A DNA stretch of 8,657 nt, from IMG/VR virus record IMGVR_UViG_2778261299_000009; one strand, 5' to 3'. The notes under the pieces were generated by a model. It had not been told where the DNA came from, made no database searches, and saw nothing but the letters and a program-made list of their open reading frames with translations. Both the position numbers and the translations under genes were made by a program. Within the stretch, counting starts at the first letter, position 1. Each line of letters begins with the position of its first letter. This document shows, one piece after another, positions 27 through 8,657 of this stretch. The stretch is from a virus (lineage: Duplodnaviria > Heunggongvirae > Uroviricota > Caudoviricetes).

Positions 27-1875
27 AGTTAACATTACAAGATATAAGTAATGGACGCACTCCCAATTAGTCTATTTAAATCGCCACGAGTTTAACTGAC
101 AACCCATGATCAATTATGAATTGCAACTATTTCTGTAGTCACTTTTGTGGGGACAGTCCACAAAACTGCCAACTTCCGCTTCTTGCTCTTAGCGGACATT
201 AGCATAGGCTATTTACCATAACGCCTCATTACGCGCACCGCCCAGACTGACTCAGCGCGTTTCTGGCATATCCCCGGTAAAACAAGTAACAAACCACCCG
301 AAAATGAACACCAGAAACGCGACTTAAGAATCTACCCTATGAATGGATATGCACTCAACCGAATCGATCTTGGTTTCAATCTTTTTTATCGGGATCAGGC
401 TTCTTTTTAGGTAACTTCGGGGGCTTAACTTGCTGATGACTTTGCGTTCGGCGCGTAAGCCAGGGATGGTCAGCTTTAGGTTTAACATAGTATTTTGAGC
501 GTAAATCAATACGGGCATTATCCACTCGTTCATGGACACTCTTTTCATCATCCAGTGGTATAGGCTCCGGGCCATCAACATACTTTTCCCAGCCCAGCGC
601 TTTCCCGTCATACAGAACGTTAATTTCACCGTCAAAGTTCTCGCATACAGTAACAACCGAATGCCTAAGTCGATATCCCCGGCCCTCACTGCGTACCTGA
701 AACGCACTGCTTTTGTACTGGAAAGTGAGATTTTTAGACAGAACGCGCTTCGCCTGTAGGCTGAAGATATAACCCAGTTCCTCTTCAGAATGGTGCACAT
801 CAAGATGAGCATTATCAGTAGTACGAGGCGACGTAGCGAACCGGTTGTTATAGGCTTCAATAAAGGTCGGCAACCATGCATTTGCTGTTTCAATATCACT
901 GATATTCTGAAGCCGCATTTCTTTGACCAGCCTGTCCTGTAGTGTCTGATTGGCGCGCTCTACCCGCCCTTTTGCCTGCGGGCTGTTGGCATGGATTGGC
1001 TCGATGCCCAGTGTCTTTATCGCACGAGTGAACTGGGTCAGCTCACCTTCCCGCTCTGGGTTATTTACCCTGAATATACTGTGTCTATCAGAGTAGAGAG
1101 CGAGCGGTACGCCATGATCATTAAGGTAACCCCGGAGGGTTTCCATGTAAGCCCGGGTTGTTTCAGCAGGCACAAAACGCAACGCCATCAACGCACTGGT
1201 GGCATCATCAATGAAAACGATCAGTGTACATCTGGGGCCTCGATTTTCAAACCAGTCATGAGGTGAGCCATCAATCTGGATCAGTTCACCGTAAGATGGT
1301 CGTCGCATGCGGCGTTGATATATACGGGCAATTTTACGACGGCGTTCACGCCATAACCCCTCTTCTATCATCCACTTTCTGAGAGTTTCAACGGATAAAG
1401 ATAAACCGTGTATCTCGCGCAATTTTTCGCACGCAAACGTAGGTCCAAAATCAGCGTAACGGCCTTTGAGGAGTGAAATTACTGTTGCTCTGAATTCAGT
1501 AGAAAAGGAATTATTAGGACGCTTTCCACGTCGGTGGGAAACCAGACCAGAAGGCCCTTCATTTCTATACCGTTGCACCAGACGTTTAACCTGCCGAATA
1601 GAAATGCCAATGCGTGCCGCAGCTTGTTCCTGAATAATCTGAAGTCGGTGGAGTTCCTTATGACTCATCGTAACAGTCTCTTTGATCATGAAAAATCCCC
1701 CAGAGAATTGTCTGGGGACATTTTAGAATGGTTCAAAGGGGACATTACAGCTTGGTGTTAACAATAGCCTGCTTCTCCGTGCCTTTCGGCACGTAAGAGG
1801 CTAACCTACATGTGTCTAGCATGAAATTGGCCTCAGATTAATGTTAAGCGTCTTGCAGGACGCGTAATGTTAACT
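27..1875 (-). mobile_element. Putative insertion sequence carrying an rve-type transposase; boundaries are tentative and set by a 12-bp inverted repeat
   Basis: AGTTAACATTAC at 27-38 matches the reverse complement of GTAATGTTAACT at 1864-1875, bracketing the transposase ORF. No target-site duplication is visible, and the repeat does not extend beyond 12 bp. Confidence 0.3.
376..1689 (-). CDS. DDE transposase with N-terminal HTH and integrase (rve) catalytic core, IS481/ISNCY-like
   Basis: 437-aa ORF with ATG at 1689 preceded by a GGGGGA ribosome-binding site. The N-terminus (GISIRQVKRLVQRY) looks like an HTH, the middle region has the look of a retroviral-integrase-type DDE core, and the C-terminus is a basic KPPKLPKKKP tail. 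Family is assigned from memory, not from a search. Confidence 0.85.
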   Translation of the reverse strand: MIKETVTMSHKELHRLQIIQEQAAARIGISIRQVKRLVQRYRNEGPSGLVSHRRGKRPNNSFSTEFRATVISLLKGRYADFGPTFACEKLREIHGLSLSVETLRKWMIEEGLWRERRRKIARIYQRRMRRPSYGELIQIDGSPHDWFENRGPRCTLIVFIDDATSALMALRFVPAETTRAYMETLRGYLNDHGVPLALYSDRHSIFRVNNPEREGELTQFTRAIKTLGIEPIHANSPQAKGRVERANQTLQDRLVKEMRLQNISDIETANAWLPTFIEAYNNRFATSPRTTDNAHLDVHHSEEELGYIFSLQAKRVLSKNLTFQYKSSAFQVRSEGRGYRLRHSVVTVCENFDGEINVLYDGKALGWEKYVDGPEPIPLDDEKSVHERVDNARIDLRSKYYVKPKADHPWLTRRTQSHQQVKPPKLPKKKPDPDKKD

Positions 1876-2023
1876 GGGGCTTTTCTCTATCTGCCGTTGG
1901 TGTCCATGCCCGAGGCAGATAGCCTCAAGCACCCGCAGTCATTCTACTTAACTAAGATTTCCCCGCAAACCGTTTTTGTCCAGCACAGTAAATATCCAAC
2001 TAAACCAATGGAGTTCGCTGTAT

Positions 2024-2203
2024 TTACCGCCAGTATTCAATGCACATGACCGCCATGAACACCCCTAAAAAAAGGGCATTTATATATCCAAATATTAATA
2101 TCAAAACATCAACTTTTTCCATATACCTTGCTGTGAAGATGATGGGCATACATGATGCGAACAACCAGAACGCAACAAACAAAAACTGCAATGCGTTTTT
2201 CAT
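2024..2203 (-). CDS. Small hydrophobic protein (59 aa from the ATG), probably two transmembrane helices; function unknown
   Basis: The track ORF 2024-2242 begins with GTG; an internal ATG at 2203 is preceded by AGGAGG (GTAGGAGGaataATG). The product MKNALQFLFVAFWLFASCMPIIF...LILIFGYINALFLGVFMAVMCI is strongly hydrophobic, and it sits in an AT-rich island. Confidence 0.35.
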   Translation of the reverse strand: MKNALQFLFVAFWLFASCMPIIFTARYMEKVDVLILIFGYINALFLGVFMAVMCIEYWR

Positions 2204-2457
2204 TATTCCTCCTACAATCAATGTGCAATTACATTTAAACACACCTCAATTTGGCCGGACATATAAATATCTAAACCAGAAAAAATCACTTACATAGCGT
2301 TACAAACTCTTTAGTCTAAAGGTTCATCGTAAAACATTCCCCATACTTATCAGTCCGTTCCGCGCCAGGTAGCTCATTGCCTTATCTGGCAACCTGTAAT
2401 CAGGTTTCCGCTTTTTCAGTTGGCTGGTCGTTTAACCGACATAGTTAATCCATTAAT

Positions 2458-2745
2458 CTAGTTGCCGGATGTTGGTGGATTTTCGCGTTTTAGTTGTTCA
2501 TAAAAGTGCACAGCTTTAACCAGTTCTTCTGATGTAACTGGGACTGGTGAGGCAGTGAATAAGGCCTGAATTTGATAGTTCGGCCTGTCGTTACAATCCT
2601 CTTTTTTCGGTACATATTTCCAGTCACCAGACCACTACTTCCCCTGAAAGTCCGTAACGCCTTTTTTCACGTAGCGATATCGCCATGCCACTGGTTTTGC
2701 TTGCCCCGCCGTTTCATGCCCTTCCTGATAATTAATCTCGCTCAT
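2458..2745 (-). pseudogene. Candidate pseudogene: about 95 codons interrupted by one in-frame TAG
   Basis: ATG at 2745 (GGGG-rich ribosome-binding site) gives MSEINYQEGHETAGQAKPVAWRYRYVKKGVTDFQGK, then TAG, then 58 more sense codons in the same frame (WSGDWKYVPKKEDCNDRPNYQIQALF...ENPPTSGN) with no start codon of their own. Confidence 0.3.
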
Positions 2746-2807
2746 TCATCGCCCCACTCATCACAATATGCTTCGACCGGAGTTTTTCCCGCTTCATAGT
2801 CATCACG

Positions 2808-2933
2808 CTAGGATTCGACATCAGCAGCACTTCCACCGCGTAACTCACCATAGTCCATTAATAGTTCATCCCGCTCTTCAAAACTGATGTTATATTTAGC
2901 TGAACAAAAATCAGCCACTTTGTTCTTCCTCAT
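2808..2933 (-). CDS. Small ORF (41 aa), hypothetical
   Basis: ATG at 2933 and TAG stop at 2808-2810. Product MRKNKVADFCSAKYNISFEERDELLMDYGELRGGSAADVES is protein-like, with a weak ribosome-binding site. It shares the N-terminal MRK-x-K with the neighbouring small ORF. Confidence 0.3.
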   Translation of the reverse strand: MRKNKVADFCSAKYNISFEERDELLMDYGELRGGSAADVES

Positions 2934-2982
2934 CGTCTTTTATTTCGTGGTATGAGTAATTGCAGTAGTTAAAGAAAATTTC

Positions 2983-3093
2983 TTATGCTCCGTCATGAAT
3001 TTCCTCAGGTGTTGCGTCATCGTCCACTTCGAATACATCCTCAAAATCTCCACCAGCTATTCCCGTTTCAATAATAATTTTGAACTTTCGCAT
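2983..3093 (-). CDS. Small acidic ORF (36 aa), hypothetical
   Basis: ATG at 3093. Upstream on the minus strand is AGGAGG, then a CCGCCC-GAAA-GGGCGG hairpin, then TAGTGAA and the ATG. Product MRKFKIIIETGIAGGDFEDVFEVDDDATPEEIHDGA. Confidence 0.35.
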   Translation of the reverse strand: MRKFKIIIETGIAGGDFEDVFEVDDDATPEEIHDGA

Positions 3094-3355
3094 TTCACTA
3101 CCGCCCTTTCGGGCGGCCTCCTGATGTTCTGAGGGTGCAGAAATCCATCCGGTTAAGTATTAAATTTTATTTACAGAACTGAATTTAATTATTCAGATAT
3201 ACGTATCTGTAGCCTTACGAATCTACTCACTGGATGCCTCTTTCATAAAAATAATCCAGTGGGTTTTATCGTTTTTTCCCTGTTCGTTGACAGATAACAG
3301 GTTTTCTGTCTGTCAGTGCCAGAATCTGGCTTACCGGTATTTGCGTTTCATTCCA

Positions 3356-3712
3356 TTAAAAAATCAGAACGCCGTGCGGCCTCAACACCCGAAAGGCTTC
3401 TTTAAATCTCTGTCGCGAATCATCACGCCAGGCATCTTTATTCAGCCGTCCATATTTCTTTCCCATCCAGGCGTTATCACCAACACTCTCAAGATGCGGA
3501 GGGTCTAATACAACCATCGAAAAAGATGCGTCTGCAAATGATAATGCACGAAAATCTGCGATAATGTCAGGGCTGATAATCAAGCGTCTCCCATTGCGTA
3601 ATGTGTATCCTTCTTTTCTGATATCGCTGAATATCGCCCGTTCGTCAGACTTATCGAACCAGAACATGCGGCTGCCACAGCACATATCAAGAATGGTTGC
3701 CGGTGCACTCAC
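3356..3712 (-). CDS. Minimal DNA methyltransferase (AdoMet-dependent, N6-adenine/N4-cytosine type), 118 aa, possibly truncated
   Basis: Motif I-like LDMCCGSR near the N-terminus and motif IV DPPH about 60 aa later. GTG start overlaps the upstream stop (GTGA coupling). No target-recognition domain follows; 29 sense codons continue in frame after the TAA stop. Confidence 0.7.
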   Translation of the reverse strand: MSAPATILDMCCGSRMFWFDKSDERAIFSDIRKEGYTLRNGRRLIISPDIIADFRALSFADASFSMVVLDPPHLESVGDNAWMGKKYGRLNKDAWRDDSRQRFKEAFRVLRPHGVLIF

Positions 3713-4131
3713 TGCGCCACGTCCTGAAAATTACCCTGATAGAAAGCCAGTATGCGCTGCATAACTTCGCTCTTCCGGCACTCGCGACAGATTATGTTTA
3801 GGCGACTGTCGTAGCGACGTATTTCTCCGTCAGGTGATGACCAGATAAGGTCCGGATCAACCACAGCAGGTTTCTTCACCTTTGCCCTCGAGAGTTTTTT
3901 GCGGGCGTTTTGCCAGTCCTTACGCGCCTGTTCAGAGGGGAATAACCCGTAGCCGGAGTTGTATACATCGCCACTGGCTACCAGCTCTCTGGCAAGAACG
4001 CTCATCAGATATCTAGTCGCACCTGTTTTAGCTTCCAGTTGCCGTAACGTCTCACGGCCGCTCTGGCGCACGAGTTCCACCACCTGCCATTTAATTTTTT
4101 CCCGCTCTTCTTGTGTAAAAACTTTTGCCAC
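3709..4131 (-). CDS. Hypothetical phage early protein (140 aa), possibly DNA-binding
   Basis: GTG start at 4131 preceded by AAGGGGGA. It lies between the replication initiator and the methyltransferase in the same operon. Basic, with a CRECRK motif; I do not recognise a family. Confidence 0.6.
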   Translation of the reverse strand: MAKVFTQEEREKIKWQVVELVRQSGRETLRQLEAKTGATRYLMSVLARELVASGDVYNSGYGLFPSEQARKDWQNARKKLSRAKVKKPAVVDPDLIWSSPDGEIRRYDSRLNIICRECRKSEVMQRILAFYQGNFQDVAQ

Positions 4132-4171
4132 AAGTCCCCCTTAAAATTACCTCATGACCTGAAATCAACAC

Positions 4172-5137
4172 TTATCCTCTGAAACCAGGCGGAATTTCTG
4201 TATCCGGTTCAGAAATATGATTAACACAACGCTGTACAGGTGAACGTCCCAGGCGGATGACCAGTTCGTCCCATTTTTCGCGGAGCTTTGACGGGCTCAT
4301 GATGTTTTTTACCCAGAATGGATCTCGCTGAACCCGACCAAACATTTCGCAAATTTGTCTGTGGCTTCTGCCATCCAGCATCCGCATTGTGCGCACGTCA
4401 TTGGCCCAGGCAGTCCAGTTAGGCTCTTTTGGTCGCATGATCTCGCCATCATCACTGGCTGCCTGTTCGTAGAGACCCACGATCCGCCCCCAGATCCACT
4501 GCGCACACGCCAAATCCTCCCTGCTACCCCACTGGCGTTTTTTCGCACTAAACACAACCGCGTCGGAGTTCCGGGTTAAAAAATCCTGTTCAGTCGTCTG
4601 CGGGTCCGGTTGCGAAGCTTCCGGACGAAAAGTGTTTTTATTCTCTGTAGTAATCTCTGTTGTATTCTCTGTAAGATCATCAGGCCATTTTGACCCGATG
4701 ACATTGGGTCGTTTTGAACCAATGGAGCGTTTCATTTTGACCTCTTCCATCGTGTCATTTTGACCTGATGGAGCGGCGCATTTTGAACCGATGGATTCGC
4801 TCAATTTGCCACCATCTAAAAGCTCGCTCCCATAGTTGATCGTGTAGAAATTGGTCATATCGCGCTTTGATTTATTGAGCTTTTCACAACGCAAAAGCCC
4901 CAGCGTTTTCAGACTTGCAAACGCGCGCTTTAACGTTGACTCTGACCAGAATGGGAACTGTTCCAGCCATTGTTCCGTTGTGTTATAAATCCAGCGAACA
5001 CCATCACATTCCATGCCGGAGTTGGTATCTCTCAACCAGTAGTGCAGTTGTTGCAAAACAATGGCTTCGTTTAAGCCAATTTTCATTGCCAGCTGCGTGT
5101 TTATAACCAGTGGGCGTTCAGCAAAAAGAAGGCTCAT
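4172..5137 (-). CDS. Phage replication initiator, lambda-O-like (replisome organiser)
   Basis: N-terminus MSLLFAERPLVINTQLAMKIGLNEAIVLQQLHYWL is typical of phage replication-initiator N-terminal domains. The middle of the gene encodes a repeated SIGSK peptide produced by the iteron array. I placed the start at ATG 5137; the track's start at 5191 is a TTG. Confidence 0.8.
   Translation of the reverse strand: MSLLFAERPLVINTQLAMKIGLNEAIVLQQLHYWLRDTNSGMECDGVRWIYNTTEQWLEQFPFWSESTLKRAFASLKTLGLLRCEKLNKSKRDMTNFYTINYGSELLDGGKLSESIGSKCAAPSGQNDTMEEVKMKRSIGSKRPNVIGSKWPDDLTENTTEITTENKNTFRPEASQPDPQTTEQDFLTRNSDAVVFSAKKRQWGSREDLACAQWIWGRIVGLYEQAASDDGEIMRPKEPNWTAWANDVRTMRMLDGRSHRQICEMFGRVQRDPFWVKNIMSPSKLREKWDELVIRLGRSPVQRCVNHISEPDTEIPPGFRG
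4642..4672. repeat. Three direct TCTCTGT repeats at 12-bp spacing next to the iterons
   Basis: TCTCTGT at 4642-4648, 4654-4660 and 4666-4672. Confidence 0.35.
4686..4816. repeat. Iteron array (5-6 direct repeats, about 23-bp period) inside the replication initiator gene; putative phage origin
   Basis: CATTTTGAC/ACC-N-GATGG units starting near 4686, 4710, 4733, 4756 and 4779, plus a degenerate unit near 4803; the spacing is about two helical turns. Confidence 0.6.
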
Positions 5138-5639
5138 AATTCCATCCAGCTTTTTGTTGGTATTGCTGTCGATACGCAAGTTTGAAAGCAATTGCTTTTT
5201 CTATAAGTTCGTCAGTTTCACGATCCACTACGGCAGGATCAGCAAAAAGCAGTCCGGACTCCACCACATCGCCATATTCTTTGTTTAACCCGGCGATCAT
5301 GCACGTGATGCTTTTTCCGTCAGTAATTTCACGATACAACCTGAAATCATTAATCCGGATAGCCTCCATAATTGCAGGCACTAGCGCCGTGAACTTTTCA
5401 CGCTTATCCCTGGTGTCGATAGCCTTCCAGCGTTCAAATATCTTCACTCGATTAACGCCAAGCGCTCGCTGATCAATCGCGCCACCTTCATATGTGACAC
5501 GCTGAACATCGATGTTCGGGCGCTCTTTCAAAGCCCAGAATGCTTCAGTGATTAATATCGTCGCCTGCTCCTGTGTCATTCCTGGTCGACATATCCAGGC
5601 ATCCAGAGCCTCACGAGCCTGTTCAGGAGTGATTTTCAT
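5118..5639 (-). CDS. YdaT-like protein (CII-position early regulator, so-called YdaT toxin family)
   Basis: 173 aa with ATG at 5639, immediately downstream of the Cro-like gene. The segment REKFTALVPAIMEAIRINDFRLY resembles the YdaT segment REKIQKLIPAILAILPRELRHRL as I recall it. Confidence 0.65.
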   Translation of the reverse strand: MKITPEQAREALDAWICRPGMTQEQATILITEAFWALKERPNIDVQRVTYEGGAIDQRALGVNRVKIFERWKAIDTRDKREKFTALVPAIMEAIRINDFRLYREITDGKSITCMIAGLNKEYGDVVESGLLFADPAVVDRETDELIEKAIAFKLAYRQQYQQKAGWNYEPSFC

Positions 5640-5853
5640 TGTTCAACCGCCCCGCCCGCTTCGTCTTACGATATTCATCATAAACTTTGGGATCATACTG
5701 AAGCTCCCCGCCAGATGCCTCCTGTAGACGCATCGCGCGACCTTCGGGAACTAAATCCCCTTTCCAGCTATAAAGCGAAGCCAAACGAATACCTGCTGCT
5801 TGTGCAAGTTTTGTTTTTGAACCGAAATACAAAAGAGCGTCAGTTTTAAGCAT
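5623..5853 (-). CDS. dicC: Cro-like (YdaS-family) DNA-binding regulator DicC
   Basis: 76 aa, ATG at 5853 preceded by AAAGGTG. It is divergent from the CI-like repressor, and the sequence matches my recollection of E. coli Qin DicC. Confidence 0.85.
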   Translation of the reverse strand: MLKTDALLYFGSKTKLAQAAGIRLASLYSWKGDLVPEGRAMRLQEASGGELQYDPKVYDEYRKTKRAGRLNNENHS

Positions 5854-5867
5854 TTAAAACACCTTTA

Positions 5868-5887
5868 TTGTTAGTCATAACTAACAA
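5868..5887. promoter_or_regulatory. Operator: perfect 8-4-8 palindrome TTGTTAGT-CATA-ACTAACAA
   Basis: Read directly from the sequence; it sits in the dicC-dicA intergenic region and overlaps the -10/+1 of the predicted dicC promoter. Confidence 0.5.
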
Positions 5888-5913
5888 GATAGATGTTAAC
5901 AAAAACATAGTCA
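5886..5913 (-). promoter_or_regulatory. Putative sigma70 promoter of dicC
   Basis: On the minus strand, -35 TTGACT (5908-5913), 16-nt spacer, -10 TATCTT (5886-5891). Confidence 0.4.
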
Positions 5914-5936
5914 ATACGATTTAGCATTAGCTAACT

Positions 5937-6344
5937 ATGGAAACAAAAAATTTAACTATCGGCGAACGCATCAGGTATCGTCGGAAAAACCTCAAACACA
6001 CCCAAAGGTCTCTTGCTAAAGCCCTGAAAATCTCCCATGTGTCTGTATCACAATGGGAACGGGGTGATAGTGAACCTACAGGGAAGAACCTTTTTGCCCT
6101 CAGCAAAGTATTGCAATGCTCACCAACATGGATTCTATTTGGCGATGAAGACAAGCAACCAACACCACCTGTTGAGAAGCCAGTTGCCTTATCCCCCAAA
6201 GAACTAGAGCTCCTTGAGCTGTTTAATGCACTGCCAGAATCAGAACAGGATACCCAGCTCGCCGAAATGCGAGCTCGAGTAAAAAACTTCAATAAACTCT
6301 TTGAAGAATTACTAAAAGCCCGTCAGCGGACAAATAAAAGATAA
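5937..6344 (+). CDS. dicA: CI-like HTH (XRE family) repressor DicA
   Basis: 135 aa with an N-terminal HTH (LKHTQRSLAKALKISHVSVSQWERG); divergent partner of dicC; matches my recollection of K-12 DicA. Confidence 0.9.
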   Translation: METKNLTIGERIRYRRKNLKHTQRSLAKALKISHVSVSQWERGDSEPTGKNLFALSKVLQCSPTWILFGDEDKQPTPPVEKPVALSPKELELLELFNALPESEQDTQLAEMRARVKNFNKLFEELLKARQRTNKR

Positions 6345-6405: not shown

Positions 6406-6434
6406 TGACCGATATGTTAGTCATGGCTAATCTT
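6406..6434 (+). promoter_or_regulatory. Putative dicB-operon promoter with an operator-like site
   Basis: -35 TTGACC (6406-6411), 17-nt spacer, weak -10 TAATCT (6429-6434). TGTTAGTCATGGCTAATC at 6415-6432 matches the intergenic operator at 14 of 18 positions. Confidence 0.35.
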
Positions 6435-6510
6435 GTTTGCATCAACACACCGCACGGTGTTCTCAGCAAACAGTTCCGCTACCCCAGCGTTAAGGGGAAA
6501 TGAGGTCAGC

Positions 6511-6666
6511 ATGGATACTATCGATCTTGGCAACAACGAATCTCTGGTGTACGGCGTGTTTCCAAACCAGGACGGCACGTTCACCGCAATGACGTATACC
6601 AAAAGCAAAACGTTTAAAACCGAAAATGGTGCCCGTCGCTGGCTGGAAAGAAACTCAGGTGAGTGA
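6511..6666 (+). CDS. ydfA: YdfA-like small protein (51 aa, DUF1391-type)
   Basis: ATG at 6511 preceded by TGAGGT; the track ORF 6433-6666 starts at a TTG. Product MDTIDLGNNESLVYGVFPNQDGTFTAMTYTKSKTFKTENGARRWLERNSGE. Confidence 0.8.
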   Translation: MDTIDLGNNESLVYGVFPNQDGTFTAMTYTKSKTFKTENGARRWLERNSGE

Positions 6667-6667
6667 T

Positions 6668-6796
6668 ATGGATTTCGACACAATCATGGAAAAGGCTTAC
6701 GAAGAATACTTCGAAGGCCTTGCCGAAGGCGAAGAAGCTCTCAGCTTCAGTGAGTTTAAACAGGCGCTTTCCAGTTCGGCAAAATCTAACGGCTGA
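6668..6796 (+). CDS. ydfB: YdfB-like small protein (42 aa)
   Basis: Below the track's length threshold. ATG at 6668, preceded by AGGTGAG, lies just after the ydfA stop. Product MDFDTIMEKAYEEYFEGLAEGEEALSFSEFKQALSSSAKSNG. Confidence 0.6.
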   Translation: MDFDTIMEKAYEEYFEGLAEGEEALSFSEFKQALSSSAKSNG

Positions 6797-6825
6797 TAAG
6801 CGAAACAGCACCGCGAGGAATCAGT

Positions 6826-7044
6826 ATGCAGAAACGAGAACCCGTCATCATCGCGCCAGACTATACCGATGATGAACTTTATGAGTGGATGCGCCAGAAA
6901 ATTAATGCAGCGCAGGATCTGAAATGGGCTAATGAAGCCAGGGCTAAGCAGGCTGAAAATCTGTCCGCTCTGGAGCAGGATATCACCAATCTGGAAAAAG
7001 CAGCGGCATTAAGCATTGCCAGAATGATTACATACCCGCGTTAG
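6826..7044 (+). CDS. ydfC: YdfC-like protein (72 aa)
   Basis: ATG at 6826 preceded by GAGGAA; the product has a coiled-coil-like C-terminus. Confidence 0.8.
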   Translation: MQKREPVIIAPDYTDDELYEWMRQKINAAQDLKWANEARAKQAENLSALEQDITNLEKAAALSIARMITYPR

Positions 7045-7384: not shown

Positions 7385-7442
7385 TTTCTGGTGACGTTTG
7401 GCGGTATCAGTTTTACTCCGTGACTGCTCTGCCGCCCTTTTT
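7385..7442 (+). ncRNA. dicF: DicF small RNA (ftsZ-targeting sRNA of Qin-type prophages)
   Basis: TTTCTGGTGACGTTTGGCGGTATCAGTTTTACTCCGTGACTGCTCTGCCGCCCTTTTT matches DicF as I recall it, and it lies between ydfC and dicB as in K-12. GGCGG/CCGCC stem plus a T-run at the 3' end. Confidence 0.7.
7399..7442 (+). terminator. Intrinsic terminator-like 3' end of DicF
   Basis: GC stem GGCGG (7400-7404) pairing with CCGCC (7432-7436), followed by TTTTT (7438-7442). Confidence 0.45.

Positions 7443-7611: not shown

Positions 7612-8657
<1,046 letters not shown>

What the first reader, a model, noticed from the sequence alone, without database searches (positions are those of the whole stretch)
4172..5639. 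Replication module without a recognisable helicase loader
The operon order is Cro-like, YdaT-like (CII-position), O-like initiator, then a 140-aa unknown. None of the ORFs shows a Walker-A DnaC-type or lambda-P-like signature, so either the element depends on host DnaC/DnaT or the 140-aa protein is a new loader or adaptor. The C-terminal part of the initiator (QWIWGRIVGLYEQ...PFWVKNIMSPSKLREKWDELVIRL) may supply the helicase-recruitment function.
Basis: inference. Interest (0 to 1): 0.4.

Follow-up and report, generated by a model that had tools for sequence, protein, structure and literature searches.

The report
Loader-less lambda-type phage replication module
This prophage replication unit encodes an origin-binding initiator but no helicase loader, and the initiator ends in the same 20-residue tail as the host protein DnaT, so it probably borrows the host's DnaC loader.

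Summary
On the minus strand the operon runs dicC/cro, YdaT-like gene, O-like initiator, 140-aa protein. No operon ORF has a Walker A motif or any DnaC, P or DnaB similarity. The complete 45-kb phage HannyBb carries the same module and also has no loader.

The window lies in a Qin-type cryptic prophage of E. coli. The initiator has a winged-helix N-domain. A disordered linker is encoded by the origin: five 23-bp iterons plus an AT-rich tract. Its C-domain is homologous to that of lambda O (E 1e-26). Its last 20 residues are 70% identical to the extreme C-terminus of host DnaT.

This tail tracks DnaC-type loaders. It ends 77 of 79 initiators upstream of phage DnaC genes and 0 of 79 P-linked O proteins. 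Initiators at least 80% identical to this one (two at 93%) occur both with DnaC and without it.

The 140-aa protein is DUF977/Ren-like. It is present whether or not DnaC is, so it is not a replacement loader.

Best reading: a loader-less form of a DnaC-dependent lambda-type module that recruits host DnaB-DnaC, probably through the DnaT-like tail. The tail's binding partner is inferred, not shown.

The parts
5937..6344 (+). dicA / cI-type repressor, divergent from the replication operon
   Evidence: HTH_3 E 1.3e-16 and Phage_CI_repr E 7.5e-6. RefSeq names it dicA.
5886..5914 (-). PR-like sigma-70 promoter (TTGACT-17-TATCTT) upstream of dicC/cro
   Evidence: Consensus scan, 9 of 12 matches. This is a consensus match only and its function is inferred.
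5623..5853 (-). dicC / Cro-like regulator, first gene of the operon
   Evidence: P22_Cro E 1.7e-11. NCBIfam DicC E 1.8e-47.
5118..5639 (-). YdaT-family protein in the cII position
   Evidence: PF06254 E 4.5e-5. phrog_163 'CII-like transcriptional activator' E 5.5e-40.
4172..5137 (-). Replication initiator, 321 aa from the ATG at 5137 (339 aa if the TTG at 5191 is used)
   Evidence: phrog_391 'replication initiation O-like' E 1.3e-91. No Pfam family. Annotated as 966 nt in RefSeq and phage records.
4814..5107 (-). N-terminal winged-helix domain of the initiator (aa 11-108), the presumed iteron-binding domain
   Evidence: AlphaFold2 block pLDDT 63-84 with an H-H-strand-strand-H-H-strand-strand pattern. 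The best Foldseek hits are RepA_N plasmid initiators 5kbj and 4pql, but weakly (E 0.02). It is not the Pfam Phage_rep_O domain.
4678..4793 (.). Origin iterons: five 23-bp units, imperfect palindromes CATCnGGnCATTTTGACCnGATG on the + strand, at 4678, 4702, 4725 (weaker), 4748 and 4771
   Evidence: Direct-repeat families D1 and D2 with 23-24 bp spacing. The core GGTCAAAATG occurs 4 times against 0.94 expected, and 0 of 200 shuffles reach 4. They are translated as the repeated IGSK motif. The layout matches ori-lambda (PMC7466680).
4636..4677 (.). AT-rich tract next to the iterons, the presumed unwinding element
   Evidence: Read directly from the sequence. Two TATTCTCTGTA repeats (D4/D6). It is encoded within the disordered linker, aa 109-175.
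4250..4597 (-). C-terminal helical domain of the initiator (aa 181-296), homologous to the lambda O C-terminal domain
   Evidence: BLASTP against lambda O: 34% identity over 148 aa, E 1e-26. AlphaFold2 predicts helices, block pLDDT 58-80.
4175..4237 (-). DnaT-like C-terminal tail VQRCVNHISEPDTEIPPGFRG (aa 301-321), the proposed loader-recruiting motif
   Evidence: 14 of 20 residues identical to E. coli DnaT 160-179, E 9e-8. Found by PDB phmmer in 2ru8, 6aep and 9zbt_D and by NCBIfam DnaT. hhalign probability 92.5%. Predicted disordered.
4132..4171 (-). 40-nt spacer between the initiator stop and the DUF977 start; relatives carry DnaC-like plus DUF1627/YdaW-like genes here
   Evidence: Junction comparison of loader-less and DnaC-containing relatives. 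Layout survey.
3709..4131 (-). 140-aa DUF977 / 'LygF' / Ren-like protein (GTG start); an accessory winged-helix protein, not a loader
   Evidence: PF06163 E 5.1e-29. phrog_142 E 1.6e-47. 20-aa motif shared with lambda Ren. AlphaFold2 winged helix at aa 7-83, pLDDT 86-96. Only generic winged-helix fold hits.
3356..3712 (-). Truncated SAM-dependent DNA methyltransferase (118 aa), last intact ORF of the operon here
   Evidence: phrog_954 E 6.7e-58, covering profile positions 52-165 of 229. Pseudogenes follow it in RefSeq.

Best explanation
This is a lambda-type origin-plus-initiator module of the class that works with DnaC-type loaders, in a form that has lost the phage's own DnaC gene.

Proposed steps:
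1. Transcription from the PR-like promoter passes through dicC, the YdaT-like gene and the initiator gene (inferred).
2. The initiator's N-terminal winged helix binds the five iterons inside its own gene, and the adjacent AT-rich tract opens, as in ori-lambda (inferred from the anatomy).
3. No phage loader is made. The initiator recruits the host DnaB-DnaC complex directly.
4. The most likely recruiting element is the 20-residue C-terminal tail that copies the tail of host DnaT, the protein encoded just upstream of dnaC in the host (inferred from co-occurrence; the contact is not shown).

The 140-aa DUF977 protein is a Ren-like accessory winged-helix protein, not a loader. In this genome the module sits in a defective Qin-type prophage, so it may be silent. 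The same layout occurs in complete phage genomes.
For: Anatomy: iterons and an AT-rich tract lie inside the gene, and the C-domain is homologous to lambda O at E 1e-26. The predicted layout is wHTH, disordered linker, helical CTD, disordered tail.

No loader: none in the operon or in the full HannyBb genome. The same layout occurs in PhiR42_1, mEp460_ev081 and Tritos.

Tail match: the tail equals DnaT 160-179.

Coupling of the tail to DnaC:
- Among 79 IMG/VR initiators chosen only because a DnaC-like gene follows, 75 end in IPxGFRG and 2 more carry it with a short extension.
- 0 of 79 O proteins upstream of lambda P carry it; they end in ...TDWIYGVDL.
- No P or DnaB follows any of 111 informative tail-bearing loci.
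- In 80 Enterobacteriaceae species DnaT keeps the tail and dnaC follows almost immediately (same small offset in 76 of 80; a 2-nt gap in E. coli K-12).

Loader is optional: three initiator clusters (>=80% identity) occur both with DnaC and without it, including two 93%-identical relatives of this initiator. Phage DnaCs are 48-51% identical to E. coli DnaC.

Tail variants: the host-identical variant IPPGFRG is loader-less in 48 of 111 informative loci. The variants IPTGFRG and IPSGFRG lack a loader in at most 3 of 110.

Tail is always present: every initiator directly upstream of DUF977 in 73 loci chosen by DUF977 alone carries it, 56 of 56. So do 108 of 120 whole-protein homologues; the other 12 are incomplete or differ at the C-terminus.

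Selection acts on the protein: all synonymous codons are used at conserved tail positions, including both serine codon classes.
Against: No direct evidence shows that the tail contacts DnaC or DnaB-DnaC. The function of DnaT residues 154-179 is not stated in the papers I could read (PMC13377028, PMC4132743). Ducos et al. 2026 favour the DnaT N-domain for DnaB/DnaC recruitment.

The tail coding sequence abuts the dnaC start. Its last codons (AGG GGG TAA) resemble a Shine-Dalgarno site, so part of the tail-DnaC association could reflect physical linkage and translational coupling rather than a protein contact.

The surveyed loci are phylogenetically related, so the counts overstate independent events.

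The C-domain is homologous to the lambda O domain that binds P, yet no P is present. What that domain does here is unknown.

This copy lies in a cryptic prophage with IS elements and pseudogenes.
Confidence: 0.6

Rival explanations
1. The DnaT-like tail docks on host PriA instead of DnaC. The initiator would then nucleate a PriA-PriB-DnaT restart primosome at the opened origin, and that primosome would load DnaB.
For: In the cryo-EM preprimosome the DnaT C-terminal domain docks on PriA through a conserved hydrophobic interface of 640 A2 (PMC13377028). The tail is hydrophobic and conserved. SPN1S-type initiators carry the whole DnaT C-domain, 63% identical over 94 aa.
Against: The tail is tied specifically to DnaC-type loaders and is absent from P-linked initiators. 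A PriA-docking role does not predict that. The published model was built from DnaT 84-153, and the text does not place residues 160-179 at the PriA interface. Phages with their own DnaC still keep the tail.
Confidence: 0.2
2. The loader-less layout is simply decay. The loader gene was deleted in a dead prophage and the module no longer replicates.
For: The window is a Qin-type cryptic prophage with an ISNCY transposase, an IS21 IstB, a truncated methyltransferase and pseudogenes. Relatives with DnaC plus a YdaW-like gene exist, so the loader-less form looks like a deletion derivative.
Against: The same layout is found in complete phage genomes deposited as phages: HannyBb at 45 kb, and also Tritos, mEp460_ev081 and SPN1S. 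It recurs in at least three initiator clusters and in 48 of 111 informative IMG/VR loci. The initiator ORF and its tail are intact in 108 of 120 homologues.
Confidence: 0.1
3. The 140-aa DUF977 protein is a new loader, or an adaptor that bridges the initiator to DnaB.
For: It always follows the replication genes, and it shares a DNA homology block with the tail and the spacer. Its function is untested.
Against: It is equally present in modules that have a DnaC-like loader. It is absent from other loader-less tail-bearing modules, where DUF1064 or other genes follow. It is predicted as a small winged helix with no AAA+ or P-like fold. It shares a motif with the non-essential lambda Ren and nothing with P.
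Confidence: 0.05
4. Host DnaA bound at the phage origin recruits DnaB-DnaC, as in several iteron plasmids, and the tail is irrelevant.
For: Iteron plasmids such as pSC101 and R6K use DnaA in this way (established knowledge, not tested here).
Against: There is only one relaxed DnaA-box match in the window, at 4112-4120 inside the DUF977 gene. That is the chance expectation (0.96), and there is no cluster at the origin.
Confidence: 0.05

Closest known systems
Bacteriophage lambda O-P replication module (ori-lambda)
   Same: The origin lies inside the initiator gene, with 23-bp-spaced palindromic iterons that have a TCAAAAYG core, followed by an AT-rich tract. The C-terminal domain is 34% identical to lambda O (E 1e-26). 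A Ren-like gene sits at the end of the module. The operon order is cro, cII-position gene, initiator.
   Different: There is no P gene. The N-terminal DNA-binding domain is not Pfam Phage_rep_O. The extreme C-terminus is DnaT-like instead of the ...TDWIYGVDL tail found in all 79 P-linked O proteins.
Initiator plus DnaC-like loader modules of enterobacterial prophages (Rac YdaU-YdaV type, Gifsy-1/2, Stx phage 75/02)
   Same: The initiator carries the same DnaT-like tail. DUF977 is at the module end. Two relatives 93% identical to this initiator carry DnaC-like, then a DUF1627/YdaW-like gene, then DUF977.
   Different: Here the DnaC-like and YdaW-like genes are missing. A 40-nt spacer joins the initiator stop to DUF977.
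E. coli dnaT-dnaC operon (primosomal protein DnaT)
   Same: The last 20 residues are 70% identical. A tail-bearing gene sits where a DnaC gene follows within 2-6 nt in the host and in phage relatives.
   Different: There is no DnaT N-domain and no PF17948 DnaT DNA-binding domain; only the tail aligns. This protein binds a double-stranded origin through its own iterons. The RAST label 'Primosomal protein I' on phage copies is therefore misleading.
DopC of Cellvibrionales/Oceanospirillales (Brezellec et al. 2017, PMC5509034)
   Same: It is an O-like N-terminal HTH protein carrying a DnaT C-terminal motif, seen there by HHpred against 2ru8_A.
   Different: DopC is chromosomal, has no iterons, is paired with a P-like protein (DopE), and is thought no longer to be an initiator.
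Initiator-only phage replication modules (I recall the category from Weigel and Seitz 2006; I could not verify the term in the library)
   Same: The phage encodes an origin-binding initiator and relies on host helicase and loader.
   Different: Here there is a specific candidate recruiting element (the DnaT-like tail), and sister phages still carry the loader.

Membership tests
Lambda-type origin/initiator module | Iterons plus an AT-rich tract located inside the initiator gene | tested here: met
   Five 23-bp iterons at 4678-4793 and an AT-rich tract at 4636-4677.
Lambda-type origin/initiator module | C-terminal domain homologous to lambda O | tested here: met
   34% identity over 148 aa, E 1e-26.
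Lambda-type origin/initiator module | N-terminal Phage_rep_O (PF04492) DNA-binding domain | tested here: not met
   No Pfam hit for the window protein. Lambda O and Gifsy-1 O hit PF04492 in the same search.
Lambda-type origin/initiator module | Adjacent P-type helicase loader | tested here: not met
   No P similarity in the window or in the HannyBb genome.
Initiator plus DnaC-type loader modules (Rac/Gifsy type) | Initiator ends in the ...PDxxIPxGFRG tail | tested here: met
   The tail is present on 77 of 79 DnaC-linked initiators.
Initiator plus DnaC-type loader modules (Rac/Gifsy type) | DnaC-like AAA+ gene immediately downstream | tested here: not met
   Absent here; DUF977 starts 40 nt after the stop. 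It is present in two 93%-identical relatives, L182 and L210.
DnaT (primosomal protein I) | DnaT N-terminal oligomerisation domain and PF17948 DNA-binding three-helix domain | tested here: not met
   BLASTP and hhalign align only the last 20-21 residues. No PF17948 hit, whereas the SPN1S initiator hits it at E 3.9e-18.
DnaT (primosomal protein I) | Conserved extreme C-terminal tail | tested here: met
   70% identity to DnaT 160-179. The tail is conserved in 80 DnaT orthologues.
DnaC/IstB AAA+ helicase loaders | Walker A/B ATPase domain (PF01695) | tested here: not met
   No operon ORF has it. Only IstB of an IS21-type element at 7908-8642 does.
DUF977 / Ren-like (the 140-aa protein) | Match to PF06163 above its gathering score | tested here: met
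   101.5 bits against a cut-off of 22.1, E 5.1e-29, full length.
DUF977 / Ren-like (the 140-aa protein) | Rex-exclusion (Ren) function | not testable with these tools
   Only a 20-aa C-terminal motif is shared with lambda Ren, 50% identity.

The most novel reading that the evidence does not exclude
The C-terminal peptide N-x-(I/V)-S-x-P-D-x-x-I-P-x-G-F-R-G may be the short linear motif that recruits DnaC, or the DnaB-DnaC complex. It is shared by host DnaT and by at least seven architectures of phage initiators. On this reading, loader-less lambda-type phages hijack the host loader by mimicking DnaT. The same motif would also answer how the PriA-PriB-DnaT preprimosome recruits DnaB/DnaC, which Ducos et al. 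2026 state is unknown. A corollary is that the dnaT-dnaC operon is a domesticated phage initiator-plus-loader pair.
Probability: 0.4. Interest if true: 0.75.

Novelty: new variant of a known kind. Interest (0 to 1): 0.55.

Why it matters
Lambda is the textbook case of a phage that brings its own helicase loader. This module shows a common alternative in E. coli prophages and phages: keep the lambda-type origin and initiator, drop the loader, and use the host's.

The initiator's DnaT-like tail gives a concrete molecular handle that can be mutated. It ends nearly every initiator that works with a DnaC-type loader and no P-linked one.

If the tail is the DnaC-recruiting element, two things become testable. 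One is how these phages start replication. The other is how DnaT hands DnaB-DnaC to a restart primosome, which the 2026 structural paper still lists as unknown.

It also corrects two annotations. 'Primosomal protein I' on these phage genes reflects only a 20-residue tail. The neighbouring DUF977 gene is not a loader.

Tried and rejected
- Pfam and NCBIfam on the initiator gave no family beyond the DnaT tail.
- PDB sequence search gave only the tail, plus a chance YteR match at E 0.013.
- The AlphaFold2 model of the initiator is mediocre (mean pLDDT 57.8, shallow alignment). Foldseek gave only weak winged-helix hits, best E 0.017, so the RepA_N resemblance is a lead and not a result.
- Profile-profile comparison of this family with the DnaT C-domain family aligns only the tail, so I rejected a deeper DnaT-CTD homology for this protein.
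- The DUF977 model gave only generic winged-helix hits, E above 0.04. The PDB sequence search for it found nothing meaningful.
- The name 'LygF' leads only to Salmonella genome notes and carries no function.
- I found no paper stating what DnaT residues 154-179 do.
- I could not verify the terms 'initiator-solo' / 'iSolo' in the library.
- I could not link mEp460_ev081 to an experimental description.
- DnaA boxes occur at chance level.
- The first tail-based IMG/VR scan returned only identical copies, so I replaced it with a DNA-pattern scan.
- A stricter adjacent-ORF rule (ATG only) under-called DnaC genes, so loader counts rest, not.
- Covariation between tail position -5 and DnaC clade is only partial. 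T and S go only with the Gifsy/Klebsiella clade, but P goes with both clades. It could reflect linkage.
Full report
**What is in the window.** The 8.7-kb window is a Qin-type lambdoid cryptic prophage of E. coli. 7.8 kb of it is 100% identical to many complete chromosomes, where it lies next to rspB and is annotated dicA, dicC, 'toxin YdaT family protein', 'hypothetical protein' (966 nt) and 'DUF977 family protein'.

The minus-strand operon, in order:

| Gene | Coordinates |
|---|---|
| dicC / Cro-like | 5623-5853 |
| YdaT-family gene in the cII position | 5118-5639 |
| Initiator | 4172-5137 (321 aa from the ATG; 339 aa from the TTG at 5191) |
| 140-aa DUF977 protein | 3709-4131 |
| Truncated methyltransferase | 3356-3712 |

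A PR-like promoter lies at 5914-5886, and the dicA repressor diverges from it. Its coordinates cover only the initiator and the YdaT-like gene.

**Is a loader really absent?** Yes.
- No operon ORF hits DnaC/IstB, lambda P or DnaB in Pfam, NCBIfam or PHROGs.
- The only real Walker A ORF in the window is IstB of an IS21-type element at 7908-8642. It lies beyond the immunity region, in DNA that the best-matching genomes do not share there.
- tblastn with E. coli DnaC, four phage DnaC-likes, lambda P and DnaB finds nothing in the operon.
- The same module is carried by records deposited as phages: PhiR42_1 (99.9% over 3.1 kb), HannyBb (96%) and mEp460_ev081 (97%).
- I read the whole 45-kb HannyBb genome. 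Its only annotated replication gene is the O-like initiator. It has no homologue of any loader or helicase, and its only clear Walker A protein is the terminase; two weak matches lie in short ORFs of the lysis region.
- So no loader sits 'just outside the window'.

**Anatomy of the initiator.** AlphaFold2 gives four parts (shallow alignment, mean pLDDT 57.8):
- a winged-helix N-domain, aa 11-108;
- a disordered linker, aa 109-175;
- a helical C-domain, aa 181-296;
- a disordered tail, aa 297-321.

The DNA that encodes the linker is the origin. It holds five 23-bp imperfect palindromes (CATCnGGnCATTTTGACCnGATG, 4678-4793) followed by an AT-rich tract (4636-4677). These explain the repeated IGSK motif in the protein. 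This is the ori-lambda layout, and even the TCAAAAYG iteron core is shared (PMC7466680).

The C-domain is homologous to the lambda O C-domain: 34% identity over 148 aa, E 1e-26. The N-domain is not the Pfam Phage_rep_O domain. Its fold matches are weak and the best are RepA_N plasmid initiators at E 0.02.

**The unexpected feature.** The last 20 residues, QRCVNHISEPDTEIPPGFRG, are 70% identical to the extreme C-terminus of E. coli DnaT ([20 protein letters not shown], residues 160-179).
- Four searches found it: PDB sequence search, NCBIfam, BLASTP (E 9e-8) and profile-profile comparison at 92.5% probability. Only the tail aligns.
- The tail sits on otherwise different initiators of enterobacterial phages. 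Their other parts include the lambda O-type C-domain, a DnaD-like C-domain (Tritos, 75/02 Stx), a Phg_2220_C-like domain, the full DnaT C-domain (SPN1S, 63% identical to DnaT 86-179, PF17948 hit) and the Phage_rep_O N-domain (Gifsy-1).
- It therefore behaves as a portable C-terminal motif.
- Brezellec et al. 2017 noted a DnaT C-terminal motif in the chromosomal O-like protein DopC (PMC5509034). I found no description of the motif in phage initiators beyond RAST's 'Primosomal protein I' label.

**What the tail travels with.** I sampled IMG/VR in several independent ways.

| Sample | Result |
|---|---|
| 120 loci found only by a DNA pattern for IPPGFRG-stop (111 informative) | 56 have a DnaC-like gene a few nt after the stop, usually followed by a DUF1627/YdaW-like gene and DUF977. 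48 have no loader (45 with DUF977 41 nt after the stop, as here; 3 with DUF1064). 7 other. None has P or DnaB. |
| 80 loci chosen only by a DnaC-like gene | 77 of 79 upstream ORFs carry the tail |
| 80 loci chosen only by lambda P | 0 of 79 O proteins carry it; all end ...KPKLDLTNTDWIYGVDL |
| 73 loci chosen only by DUF977 | The upstream gene is a tail-bearing initiator (56) or a YdaW-like gene of the DnaC layout (17); never a tail-less initiator |
| 80 Enterobacteriaceae species | DnaT keeps the tail, and dnaC follows almost immediately (same small offset in 76 of 80; 2-nt gap in E. coli K-12) |

Conserved tail positions use all synonymous codons, including TCN and AGY for serine. Selection therefore acts on the peptide. 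The last codons (AGG GGG) may also double as a ribosome-binding site for dnaC.

**The loader is optional.**
- Three initiator clusters (at least 80% identity) occur in both layouts. Two loci with initiators 93% identical to this one carry DnaC, YdaW-like and DUF977 genes.
- The phage DnaCs are 48-51% identical to E. coli DnaC over their full length.
- Loader-less layouts are common when the tail reads IPPGFRG, as in host DnaT: 48 of 111 informative loci. They are rare when it reads IPTGFRG or IPSGFRG: at most 3 of 110.
- These counts are not phylogenetically independent. The direction still fits a tail that must match whichever DnaC is available.

**The 140-aa protein.**
- It is DUF977 (E 5e-29) and phrog_142 'Ren-like'.
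- Its first 83 residues are confidently predicted as a winged helix.
- It has only generic fold matches.
- It shares a 20-residue C-terminal motif with lambda Ren and nothing with P.
- It is present with or without DnaC, and it is absent from other loader-less tail-bearing modules.
- It is therefore an accessory gene in the Ren position, not a replacement loader.

**Explanation and its limits.**
- Shown: the origin anatomy, the homology to lambda O, the absence of any loader, the DnaT-like tail, and the tail's tight genomic coupling to DnaC-type but not P-type loaders.
- Inferred: that the initiator recruits host DnaB-DnaC, and that the tail is the contact.

The main rival is that the tail docks on PriA, as the DnaT C-domain does in the 2026 cryo-EM structures, and starts a restart-type primosome (PMC13377028). 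The text of that paper does not place residues 160-179 at the PriA interface, and it says that how DnaB/DnaC is recruited remains unknown.

Physical linkage and translational coupling between the tail codons and dnaC could also inflate the association. In this particular genome the module sits in a defective prophage and may be silent.

**Verdict.** Its interest lies in the DnaT-mimicking tail, which gives a testable candidate for the DnaC-recruiting motif in both phage initiation and host replication restart.

Noticed in passing
window 7908-8642 (-): IstB-like IS21 helper ATPase (PF01695, E 2.9e-110), the only real Walker A ORF in the window. It is a DnaC-related AAA+ protein and could be mistaken for a phage loader. 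The listed best-matching E. coli genomes align only to position 7841, so this IS sits just past dicB/ydfD in DNA they do not share there.
   Followed up: partly
window 376-1689 (-) and 1700-3350: An ISNCY-family transposase gene, annotated as partial in RefSeq. It is followed by decayed genes: a frameshifted hypothetical and a DUF7167 pseudogene. These separate the replication operon from the rest of the prophage.
   Followed up: partly
window 1763-1934 (-): Rfam sok antitoxin RNA (104 bits, E 2e-23), implying a hok/sok-type toxin-antitoxin locus beside the transposase.
   Followed up: no
window 7386-7437 (+) and 7612-7800 (+): DicF sRNA (Rfam, 76.7 bits) and the dicB cell-division inhibitor gene, preceded by ydfA/ydfB/ydfC homologues at about 6433-7044. 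This is the leftward operon of Qin.
   Followed up: no
window 3356-3712 (-): The methyltransferase ORF covers only profile positions 52-165 of 229 in phrog_954. The matching gene is also fragmentary in HannyBb (207 nt).
   Followed up: no
L216-L295 (IMG/VR loci with lambda P): All 79 P-linked O proteins end in a conserved tail of their own, ...KPKLDLTNTDWIYGVDL. This suggests that the extreme C-terminus of O-type initiators is the loader-specific part in lambda as well.
   Followed up: partly
L009:2748-3563 (Salmonella phage SPN1S); also L188, L151, L199: Some phage initiators carry the entire DnaT C-terminal domain plus the tail: 63% identity to DnaT 86-179 and a PF17948 hit. They occur with or without a DnaC gene. 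This fits dnaT-dnaC being related to a phage initiator-plus-loader pair.
   Followed up: partly
window 4172-4195 and relatives (L182, L101, L144): The last tail codons plus the stop (TTC AGG GGG TAA) look like a Shine-Dalgarno site placed 6 nt before the dnaC ATG in relatives. The loader-less window copy reads AGA GGA TAA.
   Followed up: partly
P0001, P0002, P0004 (448 aa): Some database proteins fuse a YdaT-family N-terminal part (PF06254) to the full initiator sequence. One is seen on 56 contigs. I did not determine whether this is a gene-calling artefact or a real fusion.
   Followed up: no
L150 (IMG/VR), downstream of a tail-bearing initiator: A small winged-helix-like ORF and a 727-aa fused C5/N6 DNA methyltransferase follow the initiator instead of DnaC or DUF977. 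This is another loader-less layout.
   Followed up: no
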